DNA from: Chromatiales bacterium
Lineage (GTDB): Bacteria > Pseudomonadota > Gammaproteobacteria > CAMYNG01
Reading direction: 5' to 3'
NCBI GenBank assembly: GCA_027005735.1
Contig: JALTLF010000218.1
Location: forward strand, 22,935 to 86,934
DNA length: 64,000 bases
Shown: piece after piece, positions 26,622-37,017 of the stretch
Position numbering within the stretch: position 1 is the stretch's first letter
Layout of the letters: each line of letters starts with the position of its first letter
The notes under the pieces: model-generated
What the model saw: only the letters and a program-made list of their open reading frames with translations
What the model was told of the DNA's origin: nothing
Database searches by the model: none
Program-made: the position numbers and the translations under genes

Positions 26622-26709
26622 GGAGAGCTGGCTGAGTGGTCGAAAGCGGCGGTCTTGAAAACCGTTGACCGGCGACGGTCCGGGGGTTCGAATCCCTCGC
26701 TCTCCGCCA
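26622..26709 (+). tRNA. serT: tRNA-Ser (anticodon UGA), type II tRNA with long variable arm, CCA encoded
   Basis: GGAGAGCTGGCTGAGTGGTCGAAAGCGGCGGTCTTGAAAACCGTTGACCGGCGACGGTCCGGGGGTTCGAATCCCTCGCTCTCCGCCA. Acceptor stem GGAGAGC/GCTCTCC, anticodon loop CU-UGA-AA, long variable arm, T-loop GGTTCGAATCC. Closely parallels E. coli serT. Confidence 0.9.
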
Positions 26710-26714
26710 CACAC

Positions 26715-26746
26715 GAAAGGCCCCTTCGGGGGCCTTTCGTGTTTGT
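26715..26746 (+). terminator. Rho-independent terminator after tRNA-Ser
   Basis: GAAAGGCCCC-TTCG-GGGGCCTTTC followed by GTGTTTGTGG. Confidence 0.7.
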
Positions 26747-27142
26747 GGAAAGGGGTCGATGACTCGCTGGACAGCGGATCTTCCCGAAGATAGTTGAACC
26801 CACTGCCCTCTCGGGTTTCGCACAAAGATAATCGGCCTGCAACCCCAGGCTGGGACTCAGGCGTTAGCAAGTCCGACGCCGGGGTGGTGCCGACTGGTGT
26901 TCGATATGCTCAAGAAATACGCACAGCGGGCCGAAACTTCATGCTGTCGGCACCGCAACAGGGCGCATTACAAGAGGATGCGGTCAAAATCTGACCATAT
27001 TACGGCCCATGCAGGCCTGCCGTGGAAAGGGTGTAGCACACCCCGATTGGCAGTTTGCGGTCTTTTGTGGGAGATTATGGCGTGCGTGCCCCGGGCAGGA
27101 AACCGGGTATGACGAGAAGAACAAGCCGGAGAAGAGCAGGCG

Positions 27143-27538
27143 ATGTCGCGGATCAAGATCTACAGGCTCGGTCGCAACAGCAGTAATGATTATGTCATCA
27201 ACGACGACACGGTCTCGCGTTCACACGCGGAATACATCGTCTGTGATGATGGCCGCCTGTACGTAACCGATTGTCACAGTACCAGTGGCACCTTCGTTTT
27301 CCGCGGTGAGACCTGGCAGAAGATCCGCCAGGACTTCGTGGCCCCCGATGAGAAGCTGCGCTTCGGCGAGGCCGAGGTGAGCCCCGTGGAACTGGCATCT
27401 CGCGCAAAGGCCAGTGGACCCACGGCGGCAACCGTGGCCCCGCAGGCCGGCGAGAGTGAAAAGCTTTCCGAAGCACCGGAGGCGGGCACCGGTTTCGTGC
27501 GCAATCCCGAAACGGGCGAAATCATTTCCAAACAATAA
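27143..27538 (+). CDS. FHA-domain protein (small, N-terminal FHA, disordered C-tail)
   Basis: YRLGRNSSNDYVINDDTVSRSHAEYIVCDDGRLYVTDCHSTSGTFV has the FHA hallmarks (GR, SRxH, S-x-NGT-like TSGTFV). Confidence 0.8.
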   Translation: MSRIKIYRLGRNSSNDYVINDDTVSRSHAEYIVCDDGRLYVTDCHSTSGTFVFRGETWQKIRQDFVAPDEKLRFGEAEVSPVELASRAKASGPTAATVAPQAGESEKLSEAPEAGTGFVRNPETGEIISKQ

Positions 27539-27558
27539 CACGAGACAATAATCAGGAA

Positions 27559-28314
27559 ATGGGAAATCGCACCACCGTATTACTGGTCAGCTCGGGTGCC
27601 GGCCTTGTTTTCATTCTGCTGCTCAGCCTGGTCCTCGACAGCGGTTTCTTTGCCGATTTTCTCCTCGATCGAAACACGAGCTGGGCGCCGTACCCGTTCA
27701 CCATCCAGAATGTCATGTGGCTGGTATTCTTCTTTGGCCTGGGCGAACTGTATCTTCGCCACGAGAGCGGCAGCGATGACCTGCGGCAGATTTCGCTGGG
27801 TCTCCTGCCCGAGGACGAAACCAGTCTCCTGCGCCCGAAAGACCTGCCGGCACTCTACCGCAAGGTACGCCAGTCCGATCCGGACAGGCGGCATTTTTTA
27901 CAACGCATGTTGACGCGCTGTATCCTGCAGTTTCAGAGCAGTAATTCCGTGGACCAGGCAAATACCCTGTTCAATTCCAGCCTCGAGCTGTACCAGCACG
28001 AGGTGGAGCTGCGCTATAACATGTTGCGCTATATCGTCTGGCTCATCCCGACCCTGGGGTTCATCGGCACGGTTGTGGGGATCGCGCTCGCCCTCAGTGA
28101 TGCCGGCGCGGCAAAGGATTTCCAGGATCCGGAACTGCTCAAGGTCCTGACCAGGAGCCTGGGCGTGGCGTTTTATACTACCTTGCTGGCGCTGATGATG
28201 TCGGCGGTGCTGGTATTTCTCATGCACGTGATCGAAGGCCGGGAAGAACGCGTGTTGAATACGGTTGGTCAATATACGCTCGATAACCTGATCAACCGGC
28301 TCTATGAAAAATAA
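27559..28314 (+). CDS. MotA/TolQ/ExbB-like proton-channel family membrane protein (orphan, no ExbD/TolR/MotB partner)
   Basis: Topology is an N-terminal TM pair, a cytoplasmic loop, then two C-terminal TMs. WLIPTLGFIGTVVGIALAL matches the conserved LGLLGTVxG channel helix of ExbB/TolQ, followed by a second amphipathic TM (LGVAFYTTLLALMMSAVLVFL). Confidence 0.55.
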   Translation: MGNRTTVLLVSSGAGLVFILLLSLVLDSGFFADFLLDRNTSWAPYPFTIQNVMWLVFFFGLGELYLRHESGSDDLRQISLGLLPEDETSLLRPKDLPALYRKVRQSDPDRRHFLQRMLTRCILQFQSSNSVDQANTLFNSSLELYQHEVELRYNMLRYIVWLIPTLGFIGTVVGIALALSDAGAAKDFQDPELLKVLTRSLGVAFYTTLLALMMSAVLVFLMHVIEGREERVLNTVGQYTLDNLINRLYEK

Positions 28315-28409
28315 ATGATCCCCCGGAATCGGTGGCAGGGAACCGACCGCAGCTCGATGCCGCGCCACCGCAGGGCTTGAACCACCAAAGCAGAACAGGC
28401 AGGTAAACC

Positions 28410-29003
28410 ATGAGTGACTCTGACTACGATTCACCTACCCGCAAGGTAGGATCTCCGACACGGCGCAATACGGTCAAATCGGGTGACGCGGGCGCCACCC
28501 GTCCGGCAGGAAGAGGTGGCGCCGCTGATAGCGGTGAGACAAAGACCCAGATCTATCGGCCGGGGCGTCGGCGGGATGCCGATGCCGACACCCAGTCCAA
28601 CCCCACCGGCAGTAGCGCGCGTCGCGCCGCCGCCTCCGCCATGGACGATCCCCCCGCGGGCTGGCTGGTGGTCATCAGGGGACCGGGGATGGGCAGTGTC
28701 GTGACCATCGGCATAGGCAGCAATTCCATCGGCCGGGATGCCAGCGAACGCATCAGCCTGGACTTCGGCGATGAGACCATTTCCCGTGAAGGCCATGCCA
28801 TCGTAACCTACGATCCGCGTGGCAAGAAGTTCTATATCCAGCATGGGGGCGGCAAGAACCTGACCTATCTCAACAACGAACCCGTGCTGGCCCCCGCCGA
28901 ACTGGAAGCGGGTGCGGAGATCGTCATCGGGGAGACTGCGCTGCGCTTCATGCCGCTGTGTGGGCCCGACTTCAACTGGGAAGATCTCGAGACGGATCGG
29001 TAA
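28410..29003 (+). CDS. FHA-domain protein (disordered Arg/Ser/Thr-rich N-terminus, C-terminal FHA)
   Basis: WLVVIRGPGMGSVVTIGIGSNSIGRDASERISLDFGDETISREGHAIVTYD...GGKNLTYLNNEPV is an FHA core. Confidence 0.8.
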   Translation: MSDSDYDSPTRKVGSPTRRNTVKSGDAGATRPAGRGGAADSGETKTQIYRPGRRRDADADTQSNPTGSSARRAAASAMDDPPAGWLVVIRGPGMGSVVTIGIGSNSIGRDASERISLDFGDETISREGHAIVTYDPRGKKFYIQHGGGKNLTYLNNEPVLAPAELEAGAEIVIGETALRFMPLCGPDFNWEDLETDR

Positions 29004-29025
29004 GGACAGCAAAGAAAGCGAGCGC

Positions 29026-29769
29026 ATGTTTCAGGTTAAAGGCGATCAAATCATCGGCGCCCGGACGCGCCAGGAAGACAGTTTTCGCATTGAACAACTG
29101 GATACCACGGCACAGCACCTCATGGTCATCACTGACGGCATGGGTGGTCATGCAGGTGGCGCGCAGGCAAGCCGCATCGTGGCAGACAGCTTCGTCGATG
29201 CATGGCTTGGTGGAGAAGGTACAACGGTGGATCGCCTGCACGATGCGCTGTTTTACGCCAACGACCAGGTGGCCCGGGCGATAGAAGACGATCCGGAGCT
29301 GGTCGACATGGGAACGACCCTGCTGGCCTGTGTGCTGGATGGCAGTGAGTTGTCCTGGGTCAGCGTGGGTGATTCCATACTGTGGGTTTACCGTGACGGT
29401 AAGCTGCTGCGCATCAACGACGATCACTCCATGGCCCCGGTAATCGATGGCCTGGTGGAAATCGGTCGCATGACACCCGAAGAGGCCGCCAGTGACCCCA
29501 GGCGGAACCAGTTGCGTTCAGTAGTGACGGGTGAGGACATACCGCTCATCGATATCAGCAAGACGCCTCTCGTGCTGGAGGACGCTGATATCCTGCTGCT
29601 CGCCACGGACGGCATCCTCACATTGGGTGAGGACGAAATTATTTCCGTGCTGCGGGATAGCCGCCCAGCGGGACCCGAGGCATGCGCCGGAGCGATTTTC
29701 GCCGCCATTGAATCACATGCGGAGCCACAGCAGGACAATACGACCCTGATAGTTGCTTCGCAAGACTGA
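29026..29769 (+). CDS. PP2C-family Ser/Thr protein phosphatase
   Basis: RQEDSF...VITDGMGGHAGG, LLATDGI and the C-terminal DNTTLIV are metal-binding motifs of bacterial PP2C (Stp/PppA-like). Start at the internal ATG of ORF 28912..29769. Confidence 0.85.
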   Translation: MFQVKGDQIIGARTRQEDSFRIEQLDTTAQHLMVITDGMGGHAGGAQASRIVADSFVDAWLGGEGTTVDRLHDALFYANDQVARAIEDDPELVDMGTTLLACVLDGSELSWVSVGDSILWVYRDGKLLRINDDHSMAPVIDGLVEIGRMTPEEAASDPRRNQLRSVVTGEDIPLIDISKTPLVLEDADILLLATDGILTLGEDEIISVLRDSRPAGPEACAGAIFAAIESHAEPQQDNTTLIVASQD

Positions 29770-29814
29770 ACTACGAGCTCCGGCCGACGCCGGTGAGTCA
29801 ACGCAGGAAAAAGA

Positions 29815-31299
29815 ATGAAAACATCCATCCTGAAGAAGATCCTTGTTTCGACCCTGATCATCCTCTCGTGCCTTGTGCCGATATCGTTCGCCGCCGCGGA
29901 TGCCATTCTCGACCAGACAGGAAAGGCCCTGGTCCGGATCCATGTTCTGCATGGCGGCAAGGTAGAGAGTGAGCAGATCGGTTTCATCATCAACAATGAA
30001 ACGGGTCATGTGGCAACCTACTCAGGCAGCCTGGGCAAGGACAGCACGGTCAGCATTACCACCGCCAGCAACCATGAACTCAAGGCAGAGGTCGTCTTGC
30101 TGCGCCCCGAGGAGGGCGTGGCCATCTTGCGCACCAATCTCGCCGGGATGGATGTGGACTCCGTCCTGTTTGCAAAGGATCCCCTCGAAGATGGACGTAC
30201 GGTGGCAACAGCGGTTCTTTCCGGTAGTGCGCCGGACACGGAGATCGGTATACGCCGCGGCAGTGTCGGGCAAATGGTGCCGGCGGTGGGCACTGGCAAG
30301 CCGGTGCTCATTCAGCACAACGCGCTGGCAAATACCCGCAGCTTTGGCGCGCCGCTGTTCAACAACTGTGGTGAAGTTGGCGGCCTGCTGATACCGGAAA
30401 AACGCGCGCTGACGGCCATTTTCGGCGTGCCCGATGCACAGGAAGAGGGCGTTGCCTACGCGATAAGTGGCGAATGGTTGAAGAATCTCCTGCTGGCGAA
30501 CGATATTCCGTATTACACCGCGGAAGAGACCTGTGCCAGCGAGATCGAGCAGGTCGCCCAGGCCGAGGGGGATGTGGAGCGGGCCGAGGAAGAGATCCGC
30601 GCCGCCAACGAACGCCTGGACGAACTGCGGCGCCAGCTCGAAGAGGCCGGACAGGCCAGCGCCGAGGAGCGGGCGCGCCTGCAGGACGAAATAAAGAAGG
30701 CCGAAGCCTCGGTACAGGCGCTGAAGAAGAAGCAGAAAGAGCTCGAGGCGCAGGCGGCGGAGCTGGCCGAGCGGGCCGAGGCCGTGCGCAAACGCGAGCG
30801 GCAGGTGACCATCGCCGCCGCCGTCGTTGTTGCCATCCTGTTACTGCTGGTTTTACTCGCATGGCGGCGCAAGCGCCGTGCCCTGCGGGAGAAACAGGCG
30901 GCGGAGCGGGCACGCCGGGAAACGGAAGGGGAGCTGGAAAAGAAACTGGCAGAAGAGGCCATGTTGAAGGAGATCCCCGACGTGCTGCTCGAAGCGGAGT
31001 CACCGGACGGGGAGAAATTTGCAGTCAAGATCCCGGGGCCCAATCTTGGCGGCGCGGAAGGGGCGACAGTAGGTCGCAATCCCGAGATGAGTAATTTCGT
31101 CATCAATCATCCCGATGTGTCCCGCACGCATTTCCGCCTGCTGTCAGTACGCAAGCAACTTCTGATCGAAGACCTGGGATCGACCAATGGTACCAGCATC
31201 AACGGCATCCTGCTTGGTGAAGGCGAACTGGAAGCGGTCATGAATGGCACCGTTATCAGGATCGGGGACCTGCGCATCAAGGTGACGATAAAACAATGA
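29815..31299 (+). CDS. Signal peptide / degenerate trypsin-like (S1) domain / periplasmic coiled coil / TM helix / cytoplasmic FHA domain
   Basis: Cleavable N-terminal signal peptide and an S1-like fold. Compared with the downstream paralogue the catalytic positions are altered (EGVAILRT in place of IDVALLRT; RSFGAPLF in place of GNSGGPLF). Heptad-rich EIEQVAQAEGDVERAEEEIRAANERLDELRRQLEEAG..., TM IAAAVVVAILLLLVLLAW, C-terminal FHA (ATVGRNPEMSNFVINHPDVSRTHFRLL...GSTNGTSINGILL). Confidence 0.75.
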   Translation: MKTSILKKILVSTLIILSCLVPISFAAADAILDQTGKALVRIHVLHGGKVESEQIGFIINNETGHVATYSGSLGKDSTVSITTASNHELKAEVVLLRPEEGVAILRTNLAGMDVDSVLFAKDPLEDGRTVATAVLSGSAPDTEIGIRRGSVGQMVPAVGTGKPVLIQHNALANTRSFGAPLFNNCGEVGGLLIPEKRALTAIFGVPDAQEEGVAYAISGEWLKNLLLANDIPYYTAEETCASEIEQVAQAEGDVERAEEEIRAANERLDELRRQLEEAGQASAEERARLQDEIKKAEASVQALKKKQKELEAQAAELAERAEAVRKRERQVTIAAAVVVAILLLLVLLAWRRKRRALREKQAAERARRETEGELEKKLAEEAMLKEIPDVLLEAESPDGEKFAVKIPGPNLGGAEGATVGRNPEMSNFVINHPDVSRTHFRLLSVRKQLLIEDLGSTNGTSINGILLGEGELEAVMNGTVIRIGDLRIKVTIKQ

Positions 31300-31318
31300 A
31301 TCACAGTGGAACTGGATA

Positions 31319-32638
31319 ATGTCTGAGAAACTCATGCGGCGCTCCCTGCTTCTCGGGGCTTGTCTCCTGTGTCTGCTGCTGGTGCCAGCGAGTGTGCTTG
31401 CGCGGCAGTTCGACGTGGTCAAGCTTGAGAAGAGCGTGGTTCGTGTCATCACCAACAACGGGACCGGCACCGGTTTTGTCATCAACAAGGATGGCTATGT
31501 TCTCACCAATCACCACGTCATCGAAGGCGCCTCACGTTTTGTCGTGATGTCAAGTTACCTGGCACAACCGGTCGAGGCCGAGGTGGTGTTTTTCGATCGC
31601 CAGATCGACGTCGCGCTTCTTCGTACCCGCGGTCTCAATCTGCCGCCGGTAACACTGACCACCGTGACACCGGAAAAGAGCGACCAGGTTTTCGCGTTCG
31701 GTTTCCCCGGTCTCGCCGACTACGGCTCCTGGGAAGAGATTGAAGGCATTGCCCTGGATGTCACCATTACCGATGGCGTCCTGAGCCGCATTTTTGATCA
31801 GCCCTGGGCGGGAAATTCCACGGTGATCACCATTCTCCAGCACAACGCCCAGATCAATCCGGGCAACAGCGGTGGCCCGCTGTTCGATCTATGCGGGCGC
31901 GTGATCGGTATCAATACCCAGCAGGGTGTCGGCGGCCAGGGGATTTTCTGGGCCTCGCACATCAAGGAGGCAATGGGCCTGCTGAAGCAGAAGAACATCC
32001 GTTTCAAGGTCACCAGCAAGCCCTGCAAGGAAGTGACGCCGGCCGCGCCACCTCCGCCGCCGGCACCGGCGCCGAAGGTGATTGTGCCTCCGCAGTCGCG
32101 TTACACCCCCTGGCTGGTGGCGCTTTCCATTCTCGTTGCCACCGCGGCACTGTTGCTGGCGCTCAGAAAGCCGCGCGAGCGCATCGTGGAAGTGACCAAG
32201 CGCTACGCGAGTGGTATCACGCGGCGCATTACCGGGGCAAGGAAAGACACGCAAAGCGAGGGGGGCGCCACTGTCAGGGCAGGTGCAGGCGGGAAGAGCC
32301 AGGGGAAAAAGGCTGGCAGGACGGGCTTGTTGCTTTCCGGGTTTACCAGCGGGGGCAAGCCAATACGCGTCGAGATCACCGATCAGCAACTCGCCGGTCT
32401 GGGGTTCAGTCTGGGGCGTCATCCCAACCTGGTGGACTTCGTTATCGCCGACGACTCCCTGTCACGGCGTCATTTGCGCATCAGCGGGGGACATGGGCGC
32501 TACTACGTGGAAGACCTCAACTCCAGCAACGGGGTATTGATCAACGGCAAGCCGGCGAAACCCTTCGCCAGGGTCGAGATTGTGCCGGGTGACAGGCTGA
32601 CGCTGGGAGACGTGGAAATCGATGTGTCCCGGATTTAA
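31319..32638 (+). CDS. Signal peptide / HtrA- or trypsin-like serine protease (intact triad) / TM helix / cytoplasmic FHA domain
   Basis: Catalytic His (GTGFVINKDGYVLTNHHVIEGA), Asp (IDVALLRT) and Ser (INPGNSGGPLFD) are all present. Pro-rich linker, TM WLVALSILVATAALLLAL, C-terminal FHA (FSLGRHPNLVDFVIADDSLSRRHLRI...SSNGVLINGKP). Confidence 0.8.
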   Translation: MSEKLMRRSLLLGACLLCLLLVPASVLARQFDVVKLEKSVVRVITNNGTGTGFVINKDGYVLTNHHVIEGASRFVVMSSYLAQPVEAEVVFFDRQIDVALLRTRGLNLPPVTLTTVTPEKSDQVFAFGFPGLADYGSWEEIEGIALDVTITDGVLSRIFDQPWAGNSTVITILQHNAQINPGNSGGPLFDLCGRVIGINTQQGVGGQGIFWASHIKEAMGLLKQKNIRFKVTSKPCKEVTPAAPPPPPAPAPKVIVPPQSRYTPWLVALSILVATAALLLALRKPRERIVEVTKRYASGITRRITGARKDTQSEGGATVRAGAGGKSQGKKAGRTGLLLSGFTSGGKPIRVEITDQQLAGLGFSLGRHPNLVDFVIADDSLSRRHLRISGGHGRYYVEDLNSSNGVLINGKPAKPFARVEIVPGDRLTLGDVEIDVSRI

Positions 32639-32689
32639 GCGCCTGGCACGGCGTTTGCCGGTGTCCGTCTCCGTGTCAGGACGCCAGCC

Positions 32690-33511
32690 GTGAGACGCCG
32701 CAACCGGGAGATCAATATCTTCAACGTTTCGGCGCTGGACCTGTTTGCCTCGGCGCTGGGGGCCTTCATACTCATCACGGTGGTCCTGTTCCCCTACTTT
32801 CCAAATACGGGAGACTCGCCGGAGCGGGTGGCGACCTGCAAGCAGGCCCTGCAGGAATGCCGCAAGGAAAAACAGCGTCTCGAACGGGAACTGGCCAGGG
32901 CACAATTCCCCCATCTCGACCTTGTCATTGCCCTGGATGTCACCGGCAGCATGAAAGAACAGATCGACGGTCTGAAGTCGGAACTACAGCAACTGACCAT
33001 GGTGCTGGGAAAACTGGCCCCTTCCCTCGGTATTGGCGTGGTTGCCTTTGGCGACCGAAAATGGGAACAACCCATCTTCACCTATCGTCTCAGGGAGGTT
33101 GGCGGCTCCCCTGCCAATTTCCGGGATCTGCAGCGATTCATCGATGGCCTGGCACCCAACATGGGCCTGGGTTCGGGGGATAACGATGATTACCCCGAAG
33201 CCGTTGCGCGCGCGTTAGATGAAGCCATAGCGATGCCGTGGCGGGCGCAGGCAAAGAAACGGATCATTGTCGTCATCACCGACAATCCGGCCTACCCGGA
33301 AAGGATTAGCTATTCTTTACGAAGGGCAGAGGAATTTGCGCGTACACCGGGACAACAGGTGTCCACCGTTCTGGTGATTTCGCAAAATGATCCCGAAATC
33401 TATGGGCCGGCACGGGAATTTTTGGCTAAACTGGCCCGTAAGGGGAAAGGAGAAGCCGTCAAGGCCGGCGGCTCCATGACTGCGGCACTGCTGTTGGCAT
33501 TGCTGGGATAA
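32690..33511 (+). CDS. Membrane-anchored periplasmic von Willebrand factor A (vWA) domain protein
   Basis: Basic N-terminus, TM LFASALGAFILITVVLFPYF, then LVIALDVTGSM (MIDAS DxSxS-type motif) and a Rossmann-like vWA fold (IGVVAFGD..., IIVVITDNPA). Confidence 0.75.
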   Translation: MRRRNREINIFNVSALDLFASALGAFILITVVLFPYFPNTGDSPERVATCKQALQECRKEKQRLERELARAQFPHLDLVIALDVTGSMKEQIDGLKSELQQLTMVLGKLAPSLGIGVVAFGDRKWEQPIFTYRLREVGGSPANFRDLQRFIDGLAPNMGLGSGDNDDYPEAVARALDEAIAMPWRAQAKKRIIVVITDNPAYPERISYSLRRAEEFARTPGQQVSTVLVISQNDPEIYGPAREFLAKLARKGKGEAVKAGGSMTAALLLALLG

Positions 33512-33553
33512 TTTGACTACCGAGGCACATCAAACCAGAAGCAGGAAATAACG

Positions 33554-34528
33554 ATGAATGATAACCATACGACAGTGAGAGAGAAAGGCGTATCGGGCTG
33601 GCTCATTACGGCCATACTTGGTCTGATGTTTGGTTCAACGGCGGCCTATGCGGATCAACCGTCCGATACGGCGACCTTCGATGCGGAATTCCAGGTCGCT
33701 CTGGAAGAGCAACCCGATCCTGCCCGTCTGCAGGCCATGCTACGGCTTGCCGAGGCAAAGAGCAGCAGCGGTGGAGGCGGCGGCAGCGCGCCCGTGGCGA
33801 GCGGGGGAAATGTCTGGTTCGCCATCTTTCGCACTACCGACAACCGACAGCGCTGGGTACGCAACACTTCGCTCCAGGAGTTCACGAATTCCATTCGCAA
33901 GGCCTGGAGGGACGGCTATCATCTCAAGCGTGTCAACTACGCCGATGGGCGCTGGGTGGGCATCTTCGTCGACACCAAGGTGGGTTGTGCCGAACGTAAC
34001 GGTTTTGAAACCGCTGGTTCACGCGAGGCTTTCCTCAAGGCCGTAAAGCAACGTTGGGTCGATGGTTATACCCTGGTAGATGCGGCCTATGGCGAAGGCA
34101 CCTGGTTTGGTAACTTCTGTGAGGATCCCCGTGACAATACCTATGTCACGGCGAGTGACTGGGATGCCCTGAGCAACCTGATCAGCAAGAAATGGGACCA
34201 GGACAGCCAGTGGCACGTGCTCTCAGCAGACCGTGGTCCCGACGGCTGGTTGGCGGTATTCGTCAAGGGGGAGTGCCCGGGACGCAATGGCTGGAGCATC
34301 TATGATTCCCAGGCCGCCCTGGAAGAAGCACTGCGCGACAGCAACAACGACGGTTTCGCGGTTCGCAACATGGCCTACACCAATGGAAACTGGATTGCGA
34401 TGCGTTGCGAAGAGGATGTCAGCAACATCTATGAAACTGCCGCCAGCTGGCCGCAGTTGAAGGAAAAAATCAAGCAGCGCTGGGGTCAGGGCCTAGACCT
34501 GATCGCCATCGACTACGGTCGGCGCTAG
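33554..34528 (+). CDS. Secreted protein made of five tandem copies of an uncharacterised ~55-aa W/G/aromatic repeat; paralogue of the kinase ectodomain
   Basis: Signal peptide (ITAILGLMFGSTAAYA). Repeats: NVWFAIFRTTDNRQRWVRNTSLQEFTNSIRKAWRDGYHLKRVNY..., ERNGFETAGSREAFLKAVKQRWVDGYTLVDAAYGEGTWFGNF, NTYVTASDWDALSNLISKKWDQDSQWHVLSA..., RNGWSIYDSQAALEEALRDSNNDGFAVRNMAYTNGNWIAM, SNIYETAASWPQLKEKIKQRWGQGLDLIAIDYG. About 60-70% identical to residues ~485-725 of the kinase. Confidence 0.7.
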   Translation: MNDNHTTVREKGVSGWLITAILGLMFGSTAAYADQPSDTATFDAEFQVALEEQPDPARLQAMLRLAEAKSSSGGGGGSAPVASGGNVWFAIFRTTDNRQRWVRNTSLQEFTNSIRKAWRDGYHLKRVNYADGRWVGIFVDTKVGCAERNGFETAGSREAFLKAVKQRWVDGYTLVDAAYGEGTWFGNFCEDPRDNTYVTASDWDALSNLISKKWDQDSQWHVLSADRGPDGWLAVFVKGECPGRNGWSIYDSQAALEEALRDSNNDGFAVRNMAYTNGNWIAMRCEEDVSNIYETAASWPQLKEKIKQRWGQGLDLIAIDYGRR

Positions 34529-34839
34529 CTCGCATATCCACACTTGGGGGCGGTCCCGGTCTCCGGGACCGCGCCCTGCCAGCGTGGAACCTTCCACGGC
34601 AGGCCCGGCAGGACGCCGCCACGGGAATACCGTCGTGCCCCCGTGTCGGTGGGGGCCGAAGGGCGCGCGCCTGGCCCGAGTCATTGAAATTGCGGGGATT
34701 TTCAGGTTAGATAAGCCACGTGGCGAGGATGTTGTCGGTAACGGCGAGCTTCCACGCCCGGCGCCATGCTCACATGGCCACTGGATCTACCCCCGGGATC
34801 CCGCTGGTCGCGGTACATTAAAATCATAATGAAGTCGCC

Positions 34840-37017
34840 ATGAACGAACATCACCATTCCCTGCCGGAGGGCTACCAGCTTTTCGAATATCGCATCGATG
34901 GTATTCTGGGCACCGGTGGCTTCGGGATCACCTACCTTGGGTGGGACAGCAATCTCGACAAGCAGGTGGCCATCAAGGAGTACCTGCCCGGTGAATACGC
35001 CGTGCGTCTCGAAGGCGAGACCGTGGCGCCCCGGTCCACCGAGGACGAAGACGACTATGCCTGGGGGCTGGAGCGTTTTCTCGACGAGGCCCGTGCCCTG
35101 GCCCGCTTCGATCATCCCAATATCAACCGCGTACTGCGTTTTTTCGAAGCCAACAACACGGCCTACCTGGTGCTGGAGTACGTCGAGGGCAGGACGCTGG
35201 CCAAGGTTCTCAAGTCCGGCTACAGCTTCAGCGAAGCCGAGATCACCGAAATGCTGGGCGCCATGCTGTCCGGCCTGGCGGTGGTGCACCGTGCCGGCTA
35301 TGTTCACCGCGACATCAAGCCGGCCAATATCATGTTGCGCCCGGACGGCCAGCCGGTATTGCTGGATTTCGGCGCTGCCCGCCAGGCCATCGGCCGCAAG
35401 ACACAGAGCATTACCACGGTCCTCACCCCCGGCTATGCGCCCATCGAGCAGTATGACCAGCATGCCGAGGACATCGGCCCGTGGACCGATATTTACGCAC
35501 TCGGCATGGTCTTCTACCGCTGCGTCACCGGGATCTCGGACGGTGAACTGGTCGATGCCGTGGCGCGCGCGCGCATGCAGCGCAAGGGAGAAGATCCCCT
35601 CGCGCCGGCGGTGATCGCCGCGCAGGGCAAGTACAGTCCGAAGTTGCTCGAAGCCATCGACTGGGCAGTGGCGGTCAACGAGGAGGATCGTCCCCAGAAC
35701 GTCTCCGAACTCACCTCGATTCTGCCGGCCTTCGAAAACCGCACCCAGGTCTCGGGACGCGGTGATACCCAGGCCCCCACGCAGGCCGCCGGCCAGGCCC
35801 CGGGCGGGCGGCATCCGGCGGATCAGAAGACCCGGGCGGTCGCGCCGGTGGGCATGACCAGTGGTGCCCGCTGGGCACTTGGCGTGACGCTGGCGCTGGT
35901 TCTCATCGGCATTGCCCTGGGTGCGGCGTGGGTCTTCTGGGCCGGCCCGCCCGATGGAGGGGAGTCCGGCGGCCCGCTTGCCGGTGGGCCCGCGCCCGGT
36001 CCGCAGGCCACGGATCCCACGCCCGCGGTGGCCTCGCCCGTGGAAGTCGCGCCGGCCTACCTGGTGGTGCGCAGCAATGTCTCCGGCGATCACGTCATCG
36101 TCGATGGTCGGGATCTCGGGCACAGCGGGACGCGCCGTCACGAACTGGCACCGGGTGAACATGAAATACGGGTGGAGAAAAAGGGTTACATCCCCTGGAA
36201 GCGGACGCTGACGCTGGAGAGTGGCAAGACCCTCACGGTCAGGGCGCGCCTGCGTCCCCTCGCCGGGGTGCCACCGGTGGCCGGCGGGGGCCGCAGGGGC
36301 CACTGGTTTGCCGTGTTCAGGTCGACGGACAACCGCCAGCGCTGGGTACGCAACAGTTCACTCCAGGAGTTCACGGCTTCCATCCAGAAGGGCTGGGAAG
36401 ACAACTACCACCTGAGCCGCGTGATCTACAGCCGTAATACCTGGGTCGGGGTTTTCGTTGACCCGGCGGTGGGCTGCGCCAATCGAAACGGCTACGAGGT
36501 GGCGAGTACGCGCAGCGAGTTCATTAATCGTATCAAGGAGCGCTGGAAGGATGGTTTCACGCTCGTGGACATGGCCTACGGCGAGGGCGTGTGGTTTGGA
36601 AACTTCTGTGAGGACGCGCGTGGCAATACCTATGCCACGGCATCCACCTGGGATGCGCTGGCGAAAAAGATCAGCCAGAAATGGAACAAGGACAGCGATT
36701 GGCATGTCATCTCGGTGGAGCGAGGCAGGGGCGGCTGGATGGCGGTCTTCGTCAAGGGGCTGTGCCCGGGGCGCAACGGCTGGAACCGTGTCGGCTCCAG
36801 CGCGGAGCTGGAAAGGGAACTCCGGCAGGGTAGCCGCGAGGGGTTTTCGGTACGCAATATCCGCTACACCGACGGCGCCTGGTATGCCCTGCGTTGCGAG
36901 GACGGGATGCACAACATCTATGAAACCGCCAGCAGTTGGGAGGAAATGAAGAAAAAGATCAGTACGCGCTGGAGCCAGAAACTGGATCTCGTGGCGCTGG
37001 ATTACGGCCCCAACTGA
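34840..37017 (+). CDS. Hanks-type Ser/Thr protein kinase / TM / periplasmic PEGA domain / five-repeat ectodomain
   Basis: GTGGFGITYLG...VAIKE (P-loop and VAIK Lys), HRDIKPANIML, DFGAA, TPGYAPIEQ. TM WALGVTLALVLIGIALGAAWVFW. PEGA-like YLVVRSNVSGDHVIVDGRDLGHSGTRRHELAPGEHEIRVEKKGYIPWKRTLTL. Five repeats HWFAVFRSTDNRQRWVRNSSLQEF... to ...LDLVALDYGPN. Confidence 0.85.
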   Translation: MNEHHHSLPEGYQLFEYRIDGILGTGGFGITYLGWDSNLDKQVAIKEYLPGEYAVRLEGETVAPRSTEDEDDYAWGLERFLDEARALARFDHPNINRVLRFFEANNTAYLVLEYVEGRTLAKVLKSGYSFSEAEITEMLGAMLSGLAVVHRAGYVHRDIKPANIMLRPDGQPVLLDFGAARQAIGRKTQSITTVLTPGYAPIEQYDQHAEDIGPWTDIYALGMVFYRCVTGISDGELVDAVARARMQRKGEDPLAPAVIAAQGKYSPKLLEAIDWAVAVNEEDRPQNVSELTSILPAFENRTQVSGRGDTQAPTQAAGQAPGGRHPADQKTRAVAPVGMTSGARWALGVTLALVLIGIALGAAWVFWAGPPDGGESGGPLAGGPAPGPQATDPTPAVASPVEVAPAYLVVRSNVSGDHVIVDGRDLGHSGTRRHELAPGEHEIRVEKKGYIPWKRTLTLESGKTLTVRARLRPLAGVPPVAGGGRRGHWFAVFRSTDNRQRWVRNSSLQEFTASIQKGWEDNYHLSRVIYSRNTWVGVFVDPAVGCANRNGYEVASTRSEFINRIKERWKDGFTLVDMAYGEGVWFGNFCEDARGNTYATASTWDALAKKISQKWNKDSDWHVISVERGRGGWMAVFVKGLCPGRNGWNRVGSSAELERELRQGSREGFSVRNIRYTDGAWYALRCEDGMHNIYETASSWEEMKKKISTRWSQKLDLVALDYGPN

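What the first reader, a model, noticed from the sequence alone, without database searches (positions are those of the whole stretch)
27559..28314. Orphan MotA/TolQ/ExbB-like channel subunit embedded among FHA proteins
The C-terminal two helices carry the conserved LGxxGTVxG motif of proton-conducting ExbB/TolQ/MotA stators, but no ExbD/TolR/MotB-like partner (single TM plus periplasmic domain) is encoded in the cluster. It is flanked by two FHA proteins, suggesting its cytoplasmic loop (Ser/Thr-rich LLPEDETSLLRPKDLP) is a phosphorylation or FHA-docking target. Stator-like proteins in non-motility contexts (e.g. Zorya ZorA, AglR) are often parts of energised envelope machines; here it may energise or gate the protease/vWA components.
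Basis: partly seen in the sequence, partly recalled or inferred. Interest (0 to 1): 0.55.

Follow-up and report, generated by a model that had tools for sequence, protein, structure and literature searches.

The report
Stator-like channel with vWA partner
The gene really encodes a MotA/ExbB-type membrane motor subunit, but it is probably not an orphan: its likely partner is a nearby membrane-anchored vWA protein, and the pair sits in a conserved, uncharacterised cluster of kinase, phosphatase, FHA and protease genes.

Summary
Observation confirmed. ORF 27559-28314 (+, 251 aa) matches Pfam MotA_ExbB at 47.3 bits against a cut-off of 22.9. Its model folds like ExbB/TolQ/MotA/ZorA. It keeps the pore Thr (T171, equivalent to TolQ T145 and ExbB T148) and lies between two FHA genes.

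"Orphan" is only formally right. No canonical ExbD/TolR/MotB is encoded in the window, and only one turned up in 85 related loci. However, gene 32690-33511 encodes a basic N-terminus, one TM helix with an invariant Asp17, a short coiled coil and a periplasmic MIDAS vWA domain. This Asp-TM module lies within 10 kb of the MotA-like gene in 77 of 86 loci across six or more phyla; 7 of the 9 misses are truncated contigs. Its first 40 residues average 69% identity, against 28% for the rest. In Longimicrobiales the two genes occur without the phospho-module.

The best reading is a non-canonical 5:2-type ion-driven unit with a vWA-bearing plug, regulated by Ser/Thr kinase, PP2C and FHA proteins, alongside a periplasmic protease/pseudoprotease pair. 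Homology of the Asp helix to ExbD/TolR is not statistically shown, and no complex was modelled.

A 2025 paper briefly predicts TolQ-like/vWA pairs. I found no description of the phospho-regulated cluster. The proposed loop phospho-site is not conserved. Novelty: new variant of a known kind. Interest 0.6.

The parts
27559..28314 (+). MotA/ExbB/TolQ-like membrane subunit, 251 aa. It has four predicted hydrophobic helices (residues 2-25, 49-66, 158-181, 200-225) and a cytoplasmic domain at about residues 67-155.
   Evidence: PF01618 at 47.3 bits against a cut-off of 22.9. AF2 model with pLDDT 87.8. Foldseek top matches are ExbB 9ddo, TolQ 9kpz/9ddm/9quq/8vlw, MotA 6ysl and ZorA 8vvn, with probability 1.0 and TMq up to 0.58. 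Hydropathy.
28048..28086 (+). Penultimate-TM motif PTLGFIGTVVGIA (residues 164-176). T171 aligns with TolQ T145 and ExbB T148; P164 aligns with the conserved Pro of TolQ and ExbB.
   Evidence: hhalign against E. coli TolQ and ExbB. Invariant in alignment A1. Motif present in 99 of 103 distinct orthologues.
28162..28194 (+). Last-TM motif GVAFYTTLLAL (residues 202-212) with invariant T207 and T208. These are candidates for the second pore-lining Thr.
   Evidence: Invariant columns in A1. Present in 99 of 103 orthologues. Equivalence to TolQ T178 / ExbB T181 is inferred, not aligned.
27802..27849 (+). Cytoplasmic loop LLPEDETSLLRPKDLP (residues 82-97). LLPED is invariant; the Ser/Thr positions are variable.
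32690..33511 (+). Proposed partner (plug) subunit, 273 aa. It has a basic N-terminus, a TM helix with invariant Asp17, a helix at residues 44-70 carrying two Cys (C50, C57), and a periplasmic vWA domain with MIDAS residues D83-x-T-x-S87 and T197-D198.
   Evidence: Hydropathy. Pfam VWA_2 at 26.7 bits, just under the cut-off of 27. AF2 model with pLDDT 86.7. Foldseek hits to anthrax-receptor and integrin vWA domains at E 5e-10. Invariant residues in A3. Co-occurrence.
32717..32812 (+). Conserved TM module of the partner: IFNVSALD17LFASALGAFILITVVLFPYFPNTG (residues 10-41).
   Evidence: Nearly invariant across phyla. The N-terminal 40 aa average 69% pairwise identity against 28% for the rest of the protein.
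27143..27538 (+). Small cytoplasmic FHA protein (FHA1, 131 aa) with the conserved C-terminal tail RNPETGEII (residues 120-128, T124).
   Evidence: PF00498 at 48.6 bits. Tail motif conserved in orthologues.
28410..29003 (+). Cytoplasmic FHA protein (FHA2, 197 aa). [quoted passage not shown]
   Evidence: PF00498 at 41.7 bits. Sub-threshold NCBIfam hits to FhaB_Rv0019c and OdhI. Conserved Thr motifs in orthologues.
29026..29769 (+). PP2C-type Ser/Thr phosphatase (247 aa).
   Evidence: PF13672 at 47.1 bits. Stp1/IreP family model at 129.8 bits, below its cut-off. The same gene call appears in a 98%-identical contig.
29815..31299 (+). Bitopic protein: signal peptide, periplasmic trypsin-fold domain with the catalytic triad lost (pseudoprotease), coiled coil, TM helix, cytoplasmic FHA domain.
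   Evidence: Pfam Trypsin_2 at 29.6 bits and FHA at 51 bits. Hydropathy. Triad positions replaced. The catalytic Ser motif is missing from the first member of every tandem pair sampled.
31319..32638 (+). Bitopic protein: signal peptide, periplasmic active trypsin/HtrA-like protease (H65, D97, S184), TM helix, cytoplasmic FHA domain.
   Evidence: Trypsin_2 at 104.6 bits and FHA at 56.2 bits. Triad motifs TNHHV, DVALL and GNSGG.
33554..34528 (+). Secreted repeat protein (324 aa), paralogous to the extracytoplasmic C-terminus of the kinase.
   Evidence: phmmer E 1e-104 to the kinase C-terminus. Only a sub-threshold DUF7477 hit.
34840..37017 (+). Receptor Ser/Thr kinase (725 aa): kinase domain with HRD and DFG, TM helix, periplasmic PEGA domain and repeat domain.
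   Evidence: Pkinase at 127.4 bits and PEGA at 53.7 bits. TM helix at residues 341-371. Motifs located.
26622..26709 (+). tRNA-Ser(tga), immediately upstream of the cluster. It marks the left edge of a stretch with lower G+C.
   Evidence: ARAGORN. Rfam tRNA at 58.6 bits. G+C of 58-60% against 63-70% in the flanks.

Best explanation
ORF 27559-28314 is the channel-forming subunit of a non-canonical member of the MotA/ExbB/TolQ (5:2-type) ion-driven motors. By analogy it is probably pentameric. Its inner subunit is not an ExbD, TolR or MotB protein. It is the product of 32690-33511, whose single TM helix carries an invariant Asp (D17) and continues into a short, Cys-bearing coiled coil and a periplasmic MIDAS vWA head.

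Inferred mechanism. Ion flow past D17 and the Thr ring (T171, T207/T208) drives rotation or a power stroke of the Asp-TM dimer. This applies force to, or repositions, whatever the vWA head binds in the periplasm.

In this window and most relatives the unit is embedded in a Thr-phosphorylation module. Receptor kinases with variable extracytoplasmic sensor domains, together with a PP2C phosphatase, write and erase phospho-Thr marks. The likely sites are in the tails of the two small FHA proteins that flank the motor gene. FHA domains read these marks. Four proteins carry FHA domains: the two soluble ones, and a membrane-anchored periplasmic protease and pseudoprotease pair. This would assemble or switch the motor, vWA and protease complex.

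Shown here: family membership, fold, conserved pore residues, conserved synteny, and the extreme conservation of the Asp-TM module.

Inferred: physical pairing, stoichiometry, ion coupling, which residues are phosphorylated, and the biological output.
For: Family and fold:
- PF01618 match above the cut-off.
- ExbB, TolQ, MotA and ZorA are the top structural matches.
- T171 and P164 align with TolQ T145/P138 and the ExbB equivalents and are invariant.

Partner:
- The 273-aa protein has a basic N-terminus, a TM helix at residues 14-36 and then a vWA domain.
- D17 and its surrounding residues (S14, A15, L16, L18, F19, A20, S21, G24, A25, F26) are invariant in 31 database homologues.
- The same module is conserved in ORFs from Gammaproteobacteria, Binatia, Latescibacterota, Gemmatimonadota, Acidobacteriota, Rhodothermales and Rhizobium.
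- The N-terminal 40 aa average 69% identity against 28% for the remainder. The C-terminal domain is exchangeable: vWA in some, no Pfam domain in others.

Co-occurrence:
- 77 of 86 loci have the Asp-TM ORF within 10 kb. Seven of the nine misses are truncated contigs.
- All four vWA homologues checked in reverse have the MotA-like gene within about 5 kb.
- The two genes are directly adjacent on a Rhizobium megaplasmid.
- Longimicrobiales loci keep only these two genes of the set.
- A canonical ExbD occurs in 1 of 85 loci and not in the window.

Precedent:
- PMC12204202 predicts with AF3 that TM-tethered vWA proteins with a conserved Asp insert into TolQ-like pentamers that lack TolR/ExbD.
- PMC11761067 predicts that an FHA domain binds the cytoplasmic face of the TolQ-like AglR pentamer.

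Phospho-module:
- FHA-MotA-FHA-PP2C order plus kinases occurs in about 58-62 of 86 loci.
- Invariant Thr motifs lie in the FHA1 and FHA2 tails.
- The kinase carries HRD and DFG motifs.
Against: No sequence statistic links the Asp-TM helix to ExbD, TolR or MotB. A profile of the module finds no such chain in the PDB and no PF02472 hit in Pfam. hhalign and hmmsearch against E. coli ExbD, TolR and MotB are at noise level. The E-to-D spacing differs by two residues from TolR.

No multimer prediction or experiment was possible, so pairing rests on co-occurrence and conservation alone.

Two loci with full 10-kb flanks (L015, L083) lack the Asp-TM gene nearby.

The paper's family is described as mostly heterologous vWA pairs. 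Here a single gene is the rule, with pairs in 4 of 77 loci, so the two may not be the same family.

The MotA-like cytoplasmic domain has no invariant Thr, so how FHA proteins would engage the motor is unknown.

In the window the motor gene and its proposed partner are 4.4 kb apart, not adjacent.
Confidence: 0.6

Rival explanations
1. The MotA-like protein is a true orphan that works without an inserted partner. It would act, for example, as a membrane scaffold or a gated channel controlled directly by the flanking FHA proteins. The vWA protein would be just another periplasmic component of the same pathway.
For: No statistical similarity links the Asp-TM helix to ExbD, TolR or MotB. The two genes are 4.4 kb apart in the window. 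L015 and L083 lack the vWA gene within 10 kb. The FHA genes are the immediate neighbours in most loci.
Against: Known members of this fold enclose a partner helix bearing an acidic residue (established for MotAB, ExbBD, TolQR and ZorAB; those structures are listed). The pore Thr that contacts that residue is invariant here. The only part of the vWA protein conserved across phyla is a TM helix with a buried Asp, which is hard to explain for a mere membrane anchor. In Longimicrobiales the two genes occur together without any FHA gene.
Confidence: 0.2
2. The protein borrows a canonical ExbD, TolR or MotB encoded elsewhere in the genome, as a spare ExbB/TolQ paralogue.
For: Only 64 kb of the genome is visible, so distant ExbD/TolR genes cannot be excluded. 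One related locus (L022) has an ExbD-like ORF about 9 kb away.
Against: There is no ExbD, TolR or MotB in the window and only one in 85 loci. The family is a compact, divergent clade: no NCBIfam equivalog applies, and the best hits score 15-16 bits against cut-offs of 341-801. Its own profile reaches only 3278 cluster representatives out of 1.84 billion. The same cluster occurs at 55-67% identity in six or more phyla whose Tol and Ton systems differ, which argues for a self-contained module.
Confidence: 0.07
3. At the level of function, the cluster is an envelope-surveillance or conflict (anti-phage or anti-predator) system analogous to Zorya. The motor and vWA unit would sense envelope perturbation, and the kinase, FHA and protease parts would execute a response. 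This is compatible with the structural model above and is a rival only to a housekeeping or adhesion role.
For: The best PADLOC hits of the MotA-like protein are ZorA models, though weak at 24 bits. A 34%-identical relative with a long ZorA-like tail and two ExbD-like partners lies between type III-B CRISPR genes and viperin on an Anabaena plasmid. Loci often carry several paralogous kinases with diverse sensor domains. Some lie next to integrases and transposases. Here the cluster follows a tRNA gene and has lower G+C. Its distribution across phyla at high identity suggests horizontal transfer.
Against: No known defence system was recognised. The protein has no ZorA tail, and the cluster has no nuclease or other classical effector. 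There is no integrase or att repeat in this window. Kinase hits to PD-T4-6 and MAD6 reflect the generic kinase fold. No experimental data exist.
Confidence: 0.25

Closest known systems
TolQ-like / TM-tethered vWA pairs predicted in 'Origin and Evolution of Bacterial Periplasmic Force Transducers' (Mol Biol Evol 2025, PMC12204202, section 8, Fig. 4c-d; Idiomarina loihiensis example)
   Same: A tolQ-like gene with no tolR, exbD or motB. A co-occurring membrane-tethered vWA protein whose TM helix carries a conserved Asp. The helix is proposed, from AF3 models, to sit inside the pentamer next to a ring of Thr. The window shows the same features.
   Different: The paper describes mostly heterologous pairs of vWA genes. 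Here a single gene is the rule, with pairs in 4 of 77 loci. The paper never mentions kinases, phosphatases or proteases, and 'FHA' appears only as part of 'FhaC'. It gives no accession numbers in the held text, so orthology with the window genes could not be tested. In relatives of the window gene, the domain after the helix is not always vWA.
ExbB-ExbD / TolQ-TolR (Ton and Tol-Pal motors)
   Same: Fold of the channel subunit, the PF01618 match, and the conserved Pro and Thr of the penultimate TM. The partner has an N-in single TM with an Asp about 7 residues into the hydrophobic stretch, preceded by E-I-N-I as in TolR (by inspection).
   Different: There is no PF02472 domain, no TonB/TolA-like protein and no SHLS-type helix in the cluster. 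An extra N-terminal hydrophobic helix gives four helices, as in MotA, instead of three. The partner's periplasmic part is a coiled coil plus vWA. The partner helix has no statistically detectable similarity to ExbD or TolR.
Zorya ZorA-ZorB anti-phage motor
   Same: A MotA-like subunit in a non-motility context. ZorA models are the best PADLOC hits, and ZorA 8vvn is among the structural matches at TMq 0.57.
   Different: There is no long C-terminal ZorA tail; the protein ends about 25 residues after the last TM. There is no ZorB with a peptidoglycan-binding domain and no ZorC/D/E. The NCBIfam ZorA_4 score is 16.3 bits against a cut-off of 500.
Myxococcus Agl-Glt gliding machinery (AglRQS motor, GltG FHA-TM-TonB_C, vWA adhesin CglB)
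   Same: A TolQ-like motor combined with FHA-domain bitopic proteins and a vWA-domain component. An FHA domain is predicted to bind the cytoplasmic face of the pentamer (PMC11761067).
   Different: Agl uses canonical TolR-like AglQ and AglS. The vWA protein CglB is an outer-membrane adhesin, not the plug. There is no kinase/PP2C pair and there are no proteases. NCBIfam GltG scores 31 bits against a cut-off of 650.
Thr-phosphorylation pathways built from receptor kinase + PP2C + FHA (T6SS PpkA/PppA/Fha1; mycobacterial FhaA/FhaB/PstP/PknAB; GarA/OdhI switches)
   Same: The same triad of domains in one operon. FHA2 has the GarA/OdhI/FhaB-like layout of a Thr-bearing disordered N-terminus followed by an FHA domain. 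That PpkA carries a periplasmic vWA domain comes from my own knowledge, not from a tool result.
   Different: The nine cluster genes and ten neighbours that were scanned contain no T6SS, cell-wall synthesis or 2-oxoglutarate dehydrogenase genes. All NCBIfam equivalog scores are far below their cut-offs. The regulated object here would be a stator-like unit.

Membership tests
MotA/TolQ/ExbB proton channel family (PF01618) | Profile match above the curated threshold | tested here: met
   47.3 bits against a cut-off of 22.9, E 2.2e-12, residues 113-234.
MotA/TolQ/ExbB proton channel family (PF01618) | Fold of the channel subunit (long TM helices plus a helical cytoplasmic domain) | tested here: met
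   AF2 model with pLDDT 87.8. The Foldseek top 50 are all ExbB, TolQ, MotA, PomA or ZorA chains, with probability 0.95-1.0 and TMq 0.35-0.58.
MotA/TolQ/ExbB proton channel family (PF01618) | Conserved Pro and pore-lining Thr in the penultimate TM (TolQ T145 / ExbB T148) | tested here: met
   hhalign places P164 and T171 on the TolQ and ExbB residues. Both are invariant.
MotA/TolQ/ExbB proton channel family (PF01618) | Pentamer enclosing two partner helices that carry an acidic residue | not testable with these tools
   Only monomer prediction was available. A candidate partner with invariant D17 exists.
Canonical Ton / Tol / Mot stator operons | Neighbouring ExbD/TolR (PF02472) or MotB (OmpA-like) gene | tested here: not met
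   None in the window by phmmer or Pfam. One ExbD-like ORF in 85 related loci.
Canonical Ton / Tol / Mot stator operons | TonB/TolA-type transducer with an SHLS-type TM helix | tested here: not met
   No His-containing TM helix in any cluster protein. No TonB_C or TolA hit.
Zorya (ZorAB) | ZorA with a long C-terminal helical tail; match to the ZorA family model | tested here: not met
   The protein is 251 aa and ends at about residue 251, after a last TM at 200-225. NCBIfam ZorA_4 scores 16.3 bits against a cut-off of 500. PADLOC ZorA hits score 13-24 bits.
Zorya (ZorAB) | ZorB with a peptidoglycan-binding domain, and ZorC/D or other effector genes | tested here: not met
   No cluster protein matches any Zor model other than the weak ZorA hits of the MotA-like ORF itself.
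TolQ-like / trans-pore-helix vWA pairs (PMC12204202) | tolQ-like gene without tolR, exbD or motB, tightly co-occurring with a TM-tethered vWA gene | tested here: met
   77 of 86 loci. All 4 reciprocal checks positive.
TolQ-like / trans-pore-helix vWA pairs (PMC12204202) | Conserved Asp in the vWA protein's TM helix | tested here: met
   D17 is invariant in A2 and A3.
TolQ-like / trans-pore-helix vWA pairs (PMC12204202) | vWA genes predominantly in heterologous pairs | tested here: not met
   One Asp-TM gene in the window. Two in only 4 of 77 loci.
TolQ-like / trans-pore-helix vWA pairs (PMC12204202) | Orthology with the published Idiomarina loihiensis example | not testable with these tools
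   No accession or sequence is given in the held text or supplements.
Agl-Glt gliding machinery | AglQ/AglS TolR-like partners; GltG/GltJ family membership | tested here: not met
   No ExbD/TolR-like ORF. NCBIfam GltG scores 31 bits against a cut-off of 650.
T6SS threonine-phosphorylation pathway (PpkA/PppA/Fha1) | Linkage to T6SS core genes; TagH/Fha family membership | tested here: not met
   TIGR03354 VI_FHA scores 29-41 bits against a cut-off of 120. None of the 19 proteins scanned is a T6SS component.

The most novel reading that the evidence does not exclude
The cluster would be a previously uncharacterised class of envelope machine. It would be a 5:2-type ion-driven motor whose rotor or plug carries a MIDAS vWA 'hand'. 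The motor would be switched by receptor Ser/Thr kinases through FHA adaptors, and it would feed or position substrates for a membrane-tethered periplasmic protease/pseudoprotease pair. In effect this is a PMF-powered substitute for ATP-dependent unfoldase-proteases in the ATP-free periplasm, or a Zorya-like surveillance device with a proteolytic output. It would be spread by horizontal transfer among marine and symbiont bacteria of at least six phyla.
Probability: 0.25. Interest if true: 0.85.

Novelty: new variant of a known kind. Interest (0 to 1): 0.6.

Why it matters
Every characterised MotA/ExbB-type motor (flagellar stator, Ton, Tol, Agl, GldLM, Zorya) couples ion flow to work through a dedicated small partner protein. 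This case would add three things if the model holds.

- The partner's only conserved part is the Asp-bearing helix, and its output domain is exchangeable. It is vWA here.
- The whole unit appears to be under eukaryote-like Thr-phosphorylation control. That would be a new way of regulating a stator-like motor.
- The motor would be linked to periplasmic proteolysis, a process that lacks a local energy source.

The system is compact at about 10 kb and nine genes. It is conserved in cultured organisms (Corallincola, Rhizobium leguminosarum pRlBT01d, Pseudomonas sp. WN033), so it is experimentally tractable. For annotation, it also shows that "orphan" MotA/ExbB genes should be checked for non-canonical Asp-TM partners before being called partnerless.

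Tried and rejected
1. Statistical homology of the Asp-TM helix to ExbD, TolR or MotB. I searched a profile of the N-terminal module against all PDB chains, ran each module sequence against Pfam at E<=10, ran hhalign against E. coli ExbD, and ran hmmsearch with filters off against E. coli TolR, ExbD and MotB. All were at noise level, so the resemblance rests on features, not on a score.

2. Bridging through a distant relative. The Anabaena plasmid homologue is followed by two ExbD-like proteins. One has a sub-threshold PF02472 hit (E 0.0036) and a weak match to the module profile. This is suggestive only.

3. Known defence systems. PADLOC gave only weak ZorA hits and generic kinase and protease hits.

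4. The loop LLPEDETS as an FHA target. This was rejected as an obligatory site because the Thr is absent in 27 of 98 orthologues.

5. Rosetta-stone fusions. The long 'MotA-like' representatives (P0257, P0269, P0289) are frameshifted gene calls. P0195, a vWA+FHA protein, looks like a read-through of adjacent genes with no TM helix between the periplasmic and cytoplasmic domains. Neither was used as evidence.

6. Mobile-element boundaries. There is no second copy of the tRNA 3' end and no integrase among the neighbours.

7. Promoter and terminator scan. Counts were at or below shuffled expectation.

8. Literature. Five full-text searches found no paper describing a MotA/ExbB-like gene in an FHA/PP2C/kinase/protease cluster.
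Full report
**The observation**

ORF 27559-28314 (+) is a 251-aa protein. It matches Pfam MotA_ExbB (PF01618) at 47.3 bits against a gathering cut-off of 22.9. No NCBIfam equivalog applies: the best hits score 15-16 bits against cut-offs of 341-801. PADLOC gives only weak ZorA hits of at most 24 bits.

An AlphaFold2 model built on 26 homologues is confident, with mean pLDDT 87.8. Its best matches among solved structures are exclusively ExbB, TolQ, MotA/PomA and ZorA chains, with probability about 1 and TM-score up to 0.58. Profile alignment to E. coli TolQ and ExbB superposes PTLGFIGTVVGI on P-x-x-G-L-F-G-T-V-W-G-I. T171 therefore corresponds to TolQ T145 and ExbB T148, and P164 to the conserved Pro.

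Hydropathy and the model show four hydrophobic helices (residues 2-25, 49-66, 158-181, 200-225), one more at the N-terminus than ExbB or TolQ. I infer a MotA-like N-in topology. The gene is flanked by FHA-domain ORFs at 27143-27538 and 28410-29003.

**The neighbourhood**

The cluster begins after tRNA-Ser(tga) at 26622-26709. Nine co-directional genes with short gaps follow:

| Coordinates | Product |
|---|---|
| 27143-27538 | FHA1 |
| 27559-28314 | MotA-like subunit |
| 28410-29003 | FHA2 |
| 29026-29769 | PP2C phosphatase |
| 29815-31299 | periplasmic trypsin-fold domain, TM helix, cytoplasmic FHA |
| 31319-32638 | periplasmic trypsin-fold domain, TM helix, cytoplasmic FHA |
| 32690-33511 | TM-anchored vWA protein |
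| 33554-34528 | secreted repeat protein |
| 34840-37017 | receptor Ser/Thr kinase with PEGA and the same repeat domain |

G+C is 58-60% here against 63-70% in the flanks. The flanks are housekeeping genes: ftsK, lolA, rarA, crcB and serS upstream (named from the translations and gene order, not from a family search; records CRCB and seryl-tRNA synthetase families on the near-identical contig), a Bax1-I protein, and a LuxR-type response regulator, GNAT and a 2OG oxygenase downstream. There is no integrase among them. There is no repeat of the tRNA end.

**Related loci**

The MotA-like protein has more than 3000 database relatives, and the best 120 share its length at 56-98% identity. They form a compact clade: 194 clusters (at 50% identity) at E<=1e-30, and 3278 at E<=1e-3, among 1.84 billion representatives.

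A scan of one genome per species found 473 genomes. The 80 best come from Gammaproteobacteria, Binatia, Latescibacterota, Gemmatimonadota, Acidobacteriota and Rhodothermales. A Rhizobium leguminosarum megaplasmid also carries it.

I called ORFs in all loci and searched them with the window's proteins. The order FHA-MotA-FHA-PP2C, with protease-FHA genes and one to several kinases, recurs in most loci.

The most faithful companion is the homologue of the window's vWA protein. It is present in 77 of 86 loci, and seven of the nine misses are contigs that end too early. All four reciprocal look-ups starting from vWA homologues found the MotA-like gene within about 5 kb. In many Longimicrobiales loci only these two genes of the set are present, convergent, next to a PG-binding/LRR protein. 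Canonical ExbD, TolR or MotB was found in one of 85 loci and not in the window.

**The partner**

What is conserved in the vWA protein is not the vWA domain. It is the first 40 or so residues: M-(K/R)-x-R-x-R-E-I-N-I-F-S-M-S-A-L-D-L-F-A-S-A-L-G-A-F-I-L-I-x-x-V-L-F-P-Y-F-P-N-T-G.

F11, S14, A15, L16, D17, L18, F19, A20, S21, G24, A25, F26, P35, F37, P38 and N39 are invariant in 31 independent database homologues. The first 40 residues average 69% pairwise identity, against 28% for the rest.

After the helix comes a coiled coil of very variable length, and then either a vWA domain or a domain without a Pfam match. In the window protein the model shows a TM helix at 14-36, a helix at 44-70 with two Cys, and a vWA fold at 76-272. 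The fold is closest to the anthrax-receptor and integrin MIDAS domains. MIDAS residues D83, S87, T197 and D198 are conserved.

A basic cytoplasmic N-terminus, E-I-N-I, and an Asp about seven residues into a single TM helix is the layout of TolR (…SEINIVPLLD23VLL…) and ExbD (by inspection).

This resemblance is not supported by any score. A profile of the module finds no ExbD, TolR or MotB in the PDB or in Pfam, and direct comparisons are at noise level. The case for pairing therefore rests on three things:

- near-obligate co-occurrence;
- a buried, invariant acidic residue in the only conserved segment;
- the matching invariance of the pore Thr in the channel subunit.

**Literature**

PMC12204202 (Mol Biol Evol 2025) devotes one paragraph and one figure panel to TM-tethered vWA proteins. 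[quoted passage not shown] AF3 models place the helices inside the TolQ-like pentamer. That is the same idea.

The paper reports mostly heterologous vWA pairs, names Idiomarina loihiensis, and never mentions kinases, phosphatases or proteases; 'FHA' appears only as part of 'FhaC'. I could not test orthology.

PMC11761067 predicts that an FHA domain of GltG binds the cytoplasmic face of the TolQ-like AglR pentamer. This is a precedent for contact between FHA domains and a motor. I found no paper on the full cluster.

**The phospho-module**

- The kinase has HRD and DFG motifs.
- FHA2 has a disordered, Thr-bearing N-terminus (…DSPT…, …ETKTQIYRPG…) before its FHA domain, like GarA/OdhI/FhaB.
- FHA1 orthologues end in an invariant R-x-P-x-T-G-E-I-I tail. 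This fits the pT-x-x-I pattern favoured by many FHA domains (the preference is from my own knowledge; the motif is).
A Thr is present in only 71 of 98 orthologues, and 13 have neither Ser nor Thr. The cytoplasmic domain has no invariant Thr.
- The first protease gene has lost His, Asp and Ser of the triad, while the second keeps them. This dead-then-live order recurs wherever two are present.
- Some loci use M4 metallopeptidase-FHA proteins instead.

**Most likely mechanism**

A MotA-like oligomer, presumably a pentamer, encloses a dimer of the Asp-TM helices. Ion flow through D17 and the Thr ring moves the dimer and its periplasmic vWA head. Receptor kinases and PP2C set phospho-Thr marks on the FHA adaptor tails. 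FHA domains, including those on the cytoplasmic ends of the protease pair, assemble or switch the complex.

The steps that are shown and those that are inferred are listed under Best explanation. I put 0.6 on this structural model. The biological role (defence or surveillance, adhesion, or periplasmic proteolysis) is open.

Several points hint at a conflict-type system. The sensor kinases are diversified and multiple. Horizontal transfer is apparent. Some loci sit next to integrases. A ZorA-like relative lies beside CRISPR and viperin genes. None of this proves the role.

**Caveats**

- Gene starts in the related loci are my own ORF calls.
- Domain detection in the loci used the window's proteins as queries, so divergent FHA, PP2C or kinase genes may have been missed.
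- Only 10 kb on each side of each locus was examined.
- No multimer model could be run.
- The rest of this genome is unseen.

Noticed in passing
window 29815-31299 and 31319-32638: These are tandem bitopic proteins with a periplasmic trypsin fold, a TM helix and a cytoplasmic FHA domain. The first has lost the whole catalytic triad and is a pseudoprotease. The second keeps H65, D97 and S184. The same dead-then-live order recurs in about 30 related loci.
   Followed up: partly
window 33554-34528 and 36250-37017: A secreted 324-aa protein is a close paralogue (phmmer E 1e-104) of the extracytoplasmic C-terminus of the kinase. Both contain about four repeats of the pattern W..G..L..V.Y..G.W.G.F, with only a sub-threshold DUF7477 hit. 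This domain was not seen in any of the 85 other loci. It may be a decoy or co-receptor for the kinase's ligand.
   Followed up: partly
window 27500-27526 (FHA1 tail); FHA2 orthologue N-termini in L006-L085: The FHA1 C-terminal tail RNPETGEII and the N-terminus of FHA2 orthologues (MPVYRGPDGKIIEE) look like one short motif with Thr exchanged for Asp. They might compete for the same docking site. The window's FHA2 lacks this N-terminus: a stop codon lies two codons upstream of its ATG.
   Followed up: partly
L090 (Anabaena cylindrica PCC 7122 plasmid NC_019773), locus 5713-8292: A 466-aa relative (34% identity) has a long ZorA-like C-terminal coiled coil. It is followed by two small ExbD-like TM proteins, one with FLDIL and the other with FLSVL in the helix. 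The genes lie between type III-B CRISPR cmr genes and a viperin gene.
   Followed up: partly
window 26622-37017: The cluster starts right after tRNA-Ser(tga) and has 58-60% G+C against 63-70% around it, which suggests acquisition. However, there is no integrase and no repeat of the tRNA 3' end.
   Followed up: yes
L027, L029, L032, L033, L038, L043-L045, L050, L052, L053, L057, L060, L061, L063, L067, L070, L076, L078, L082: In Gemmatimonadota/Longimicrobiales loci only the MotA-like gene and the Asp-TM vWA gene are present, convergent, next to a PG_binding_1 + LRR protein. No FHA, PP2C or kinase was detected. One such genome (contig OZ220732.1, source of L043) also has a second copy linked to FHA and PP2C (L096).
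   Followed up: partly
L094 1-644; L095 132-4105: Some relatives replace or supplement the trypsin-FHA proteins with thermolysin-like (Peptidase_M4_C) FHA proteins and with PP2C fusions. A membrane-tethered periplasmic protease with a cytoplasmic FHA domain is therefore the recurring theme, rather than a particular protease family.
   Followed up: no
loci L021-L078 (record titles): Many carriers are metagenome bins whose names I recognise as sponge or coral symbiont bins (APA, RHO, IRC, CAR, PNG, SB06xx, Plut, 'Candidatus Spongiihabitans'). This hints at enrichment in host-associated marine bacteria. It rests on my own reading of bin names and was not verified.
   Followed up: no
P0195, P0257, P0269, P0289: Apparent fusion or over-long proteins in the databases (vWA+FHA, and MotA-like proteins with long tails) look like read-through or frameshifted gene calls in high-G+C contigs, not real domain fusions.
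   Followed up: yes
window 32837-32860: Two Cys (C50, C57; CKQALQEC) lie in the periplasmic helix just after the partner's TM segment. Cys residues recur in this region in orthologues, for example CPVCPTCP in Gemmatimonadota. They could form interchain disulfides that fix a dimer.
   Followed up: no
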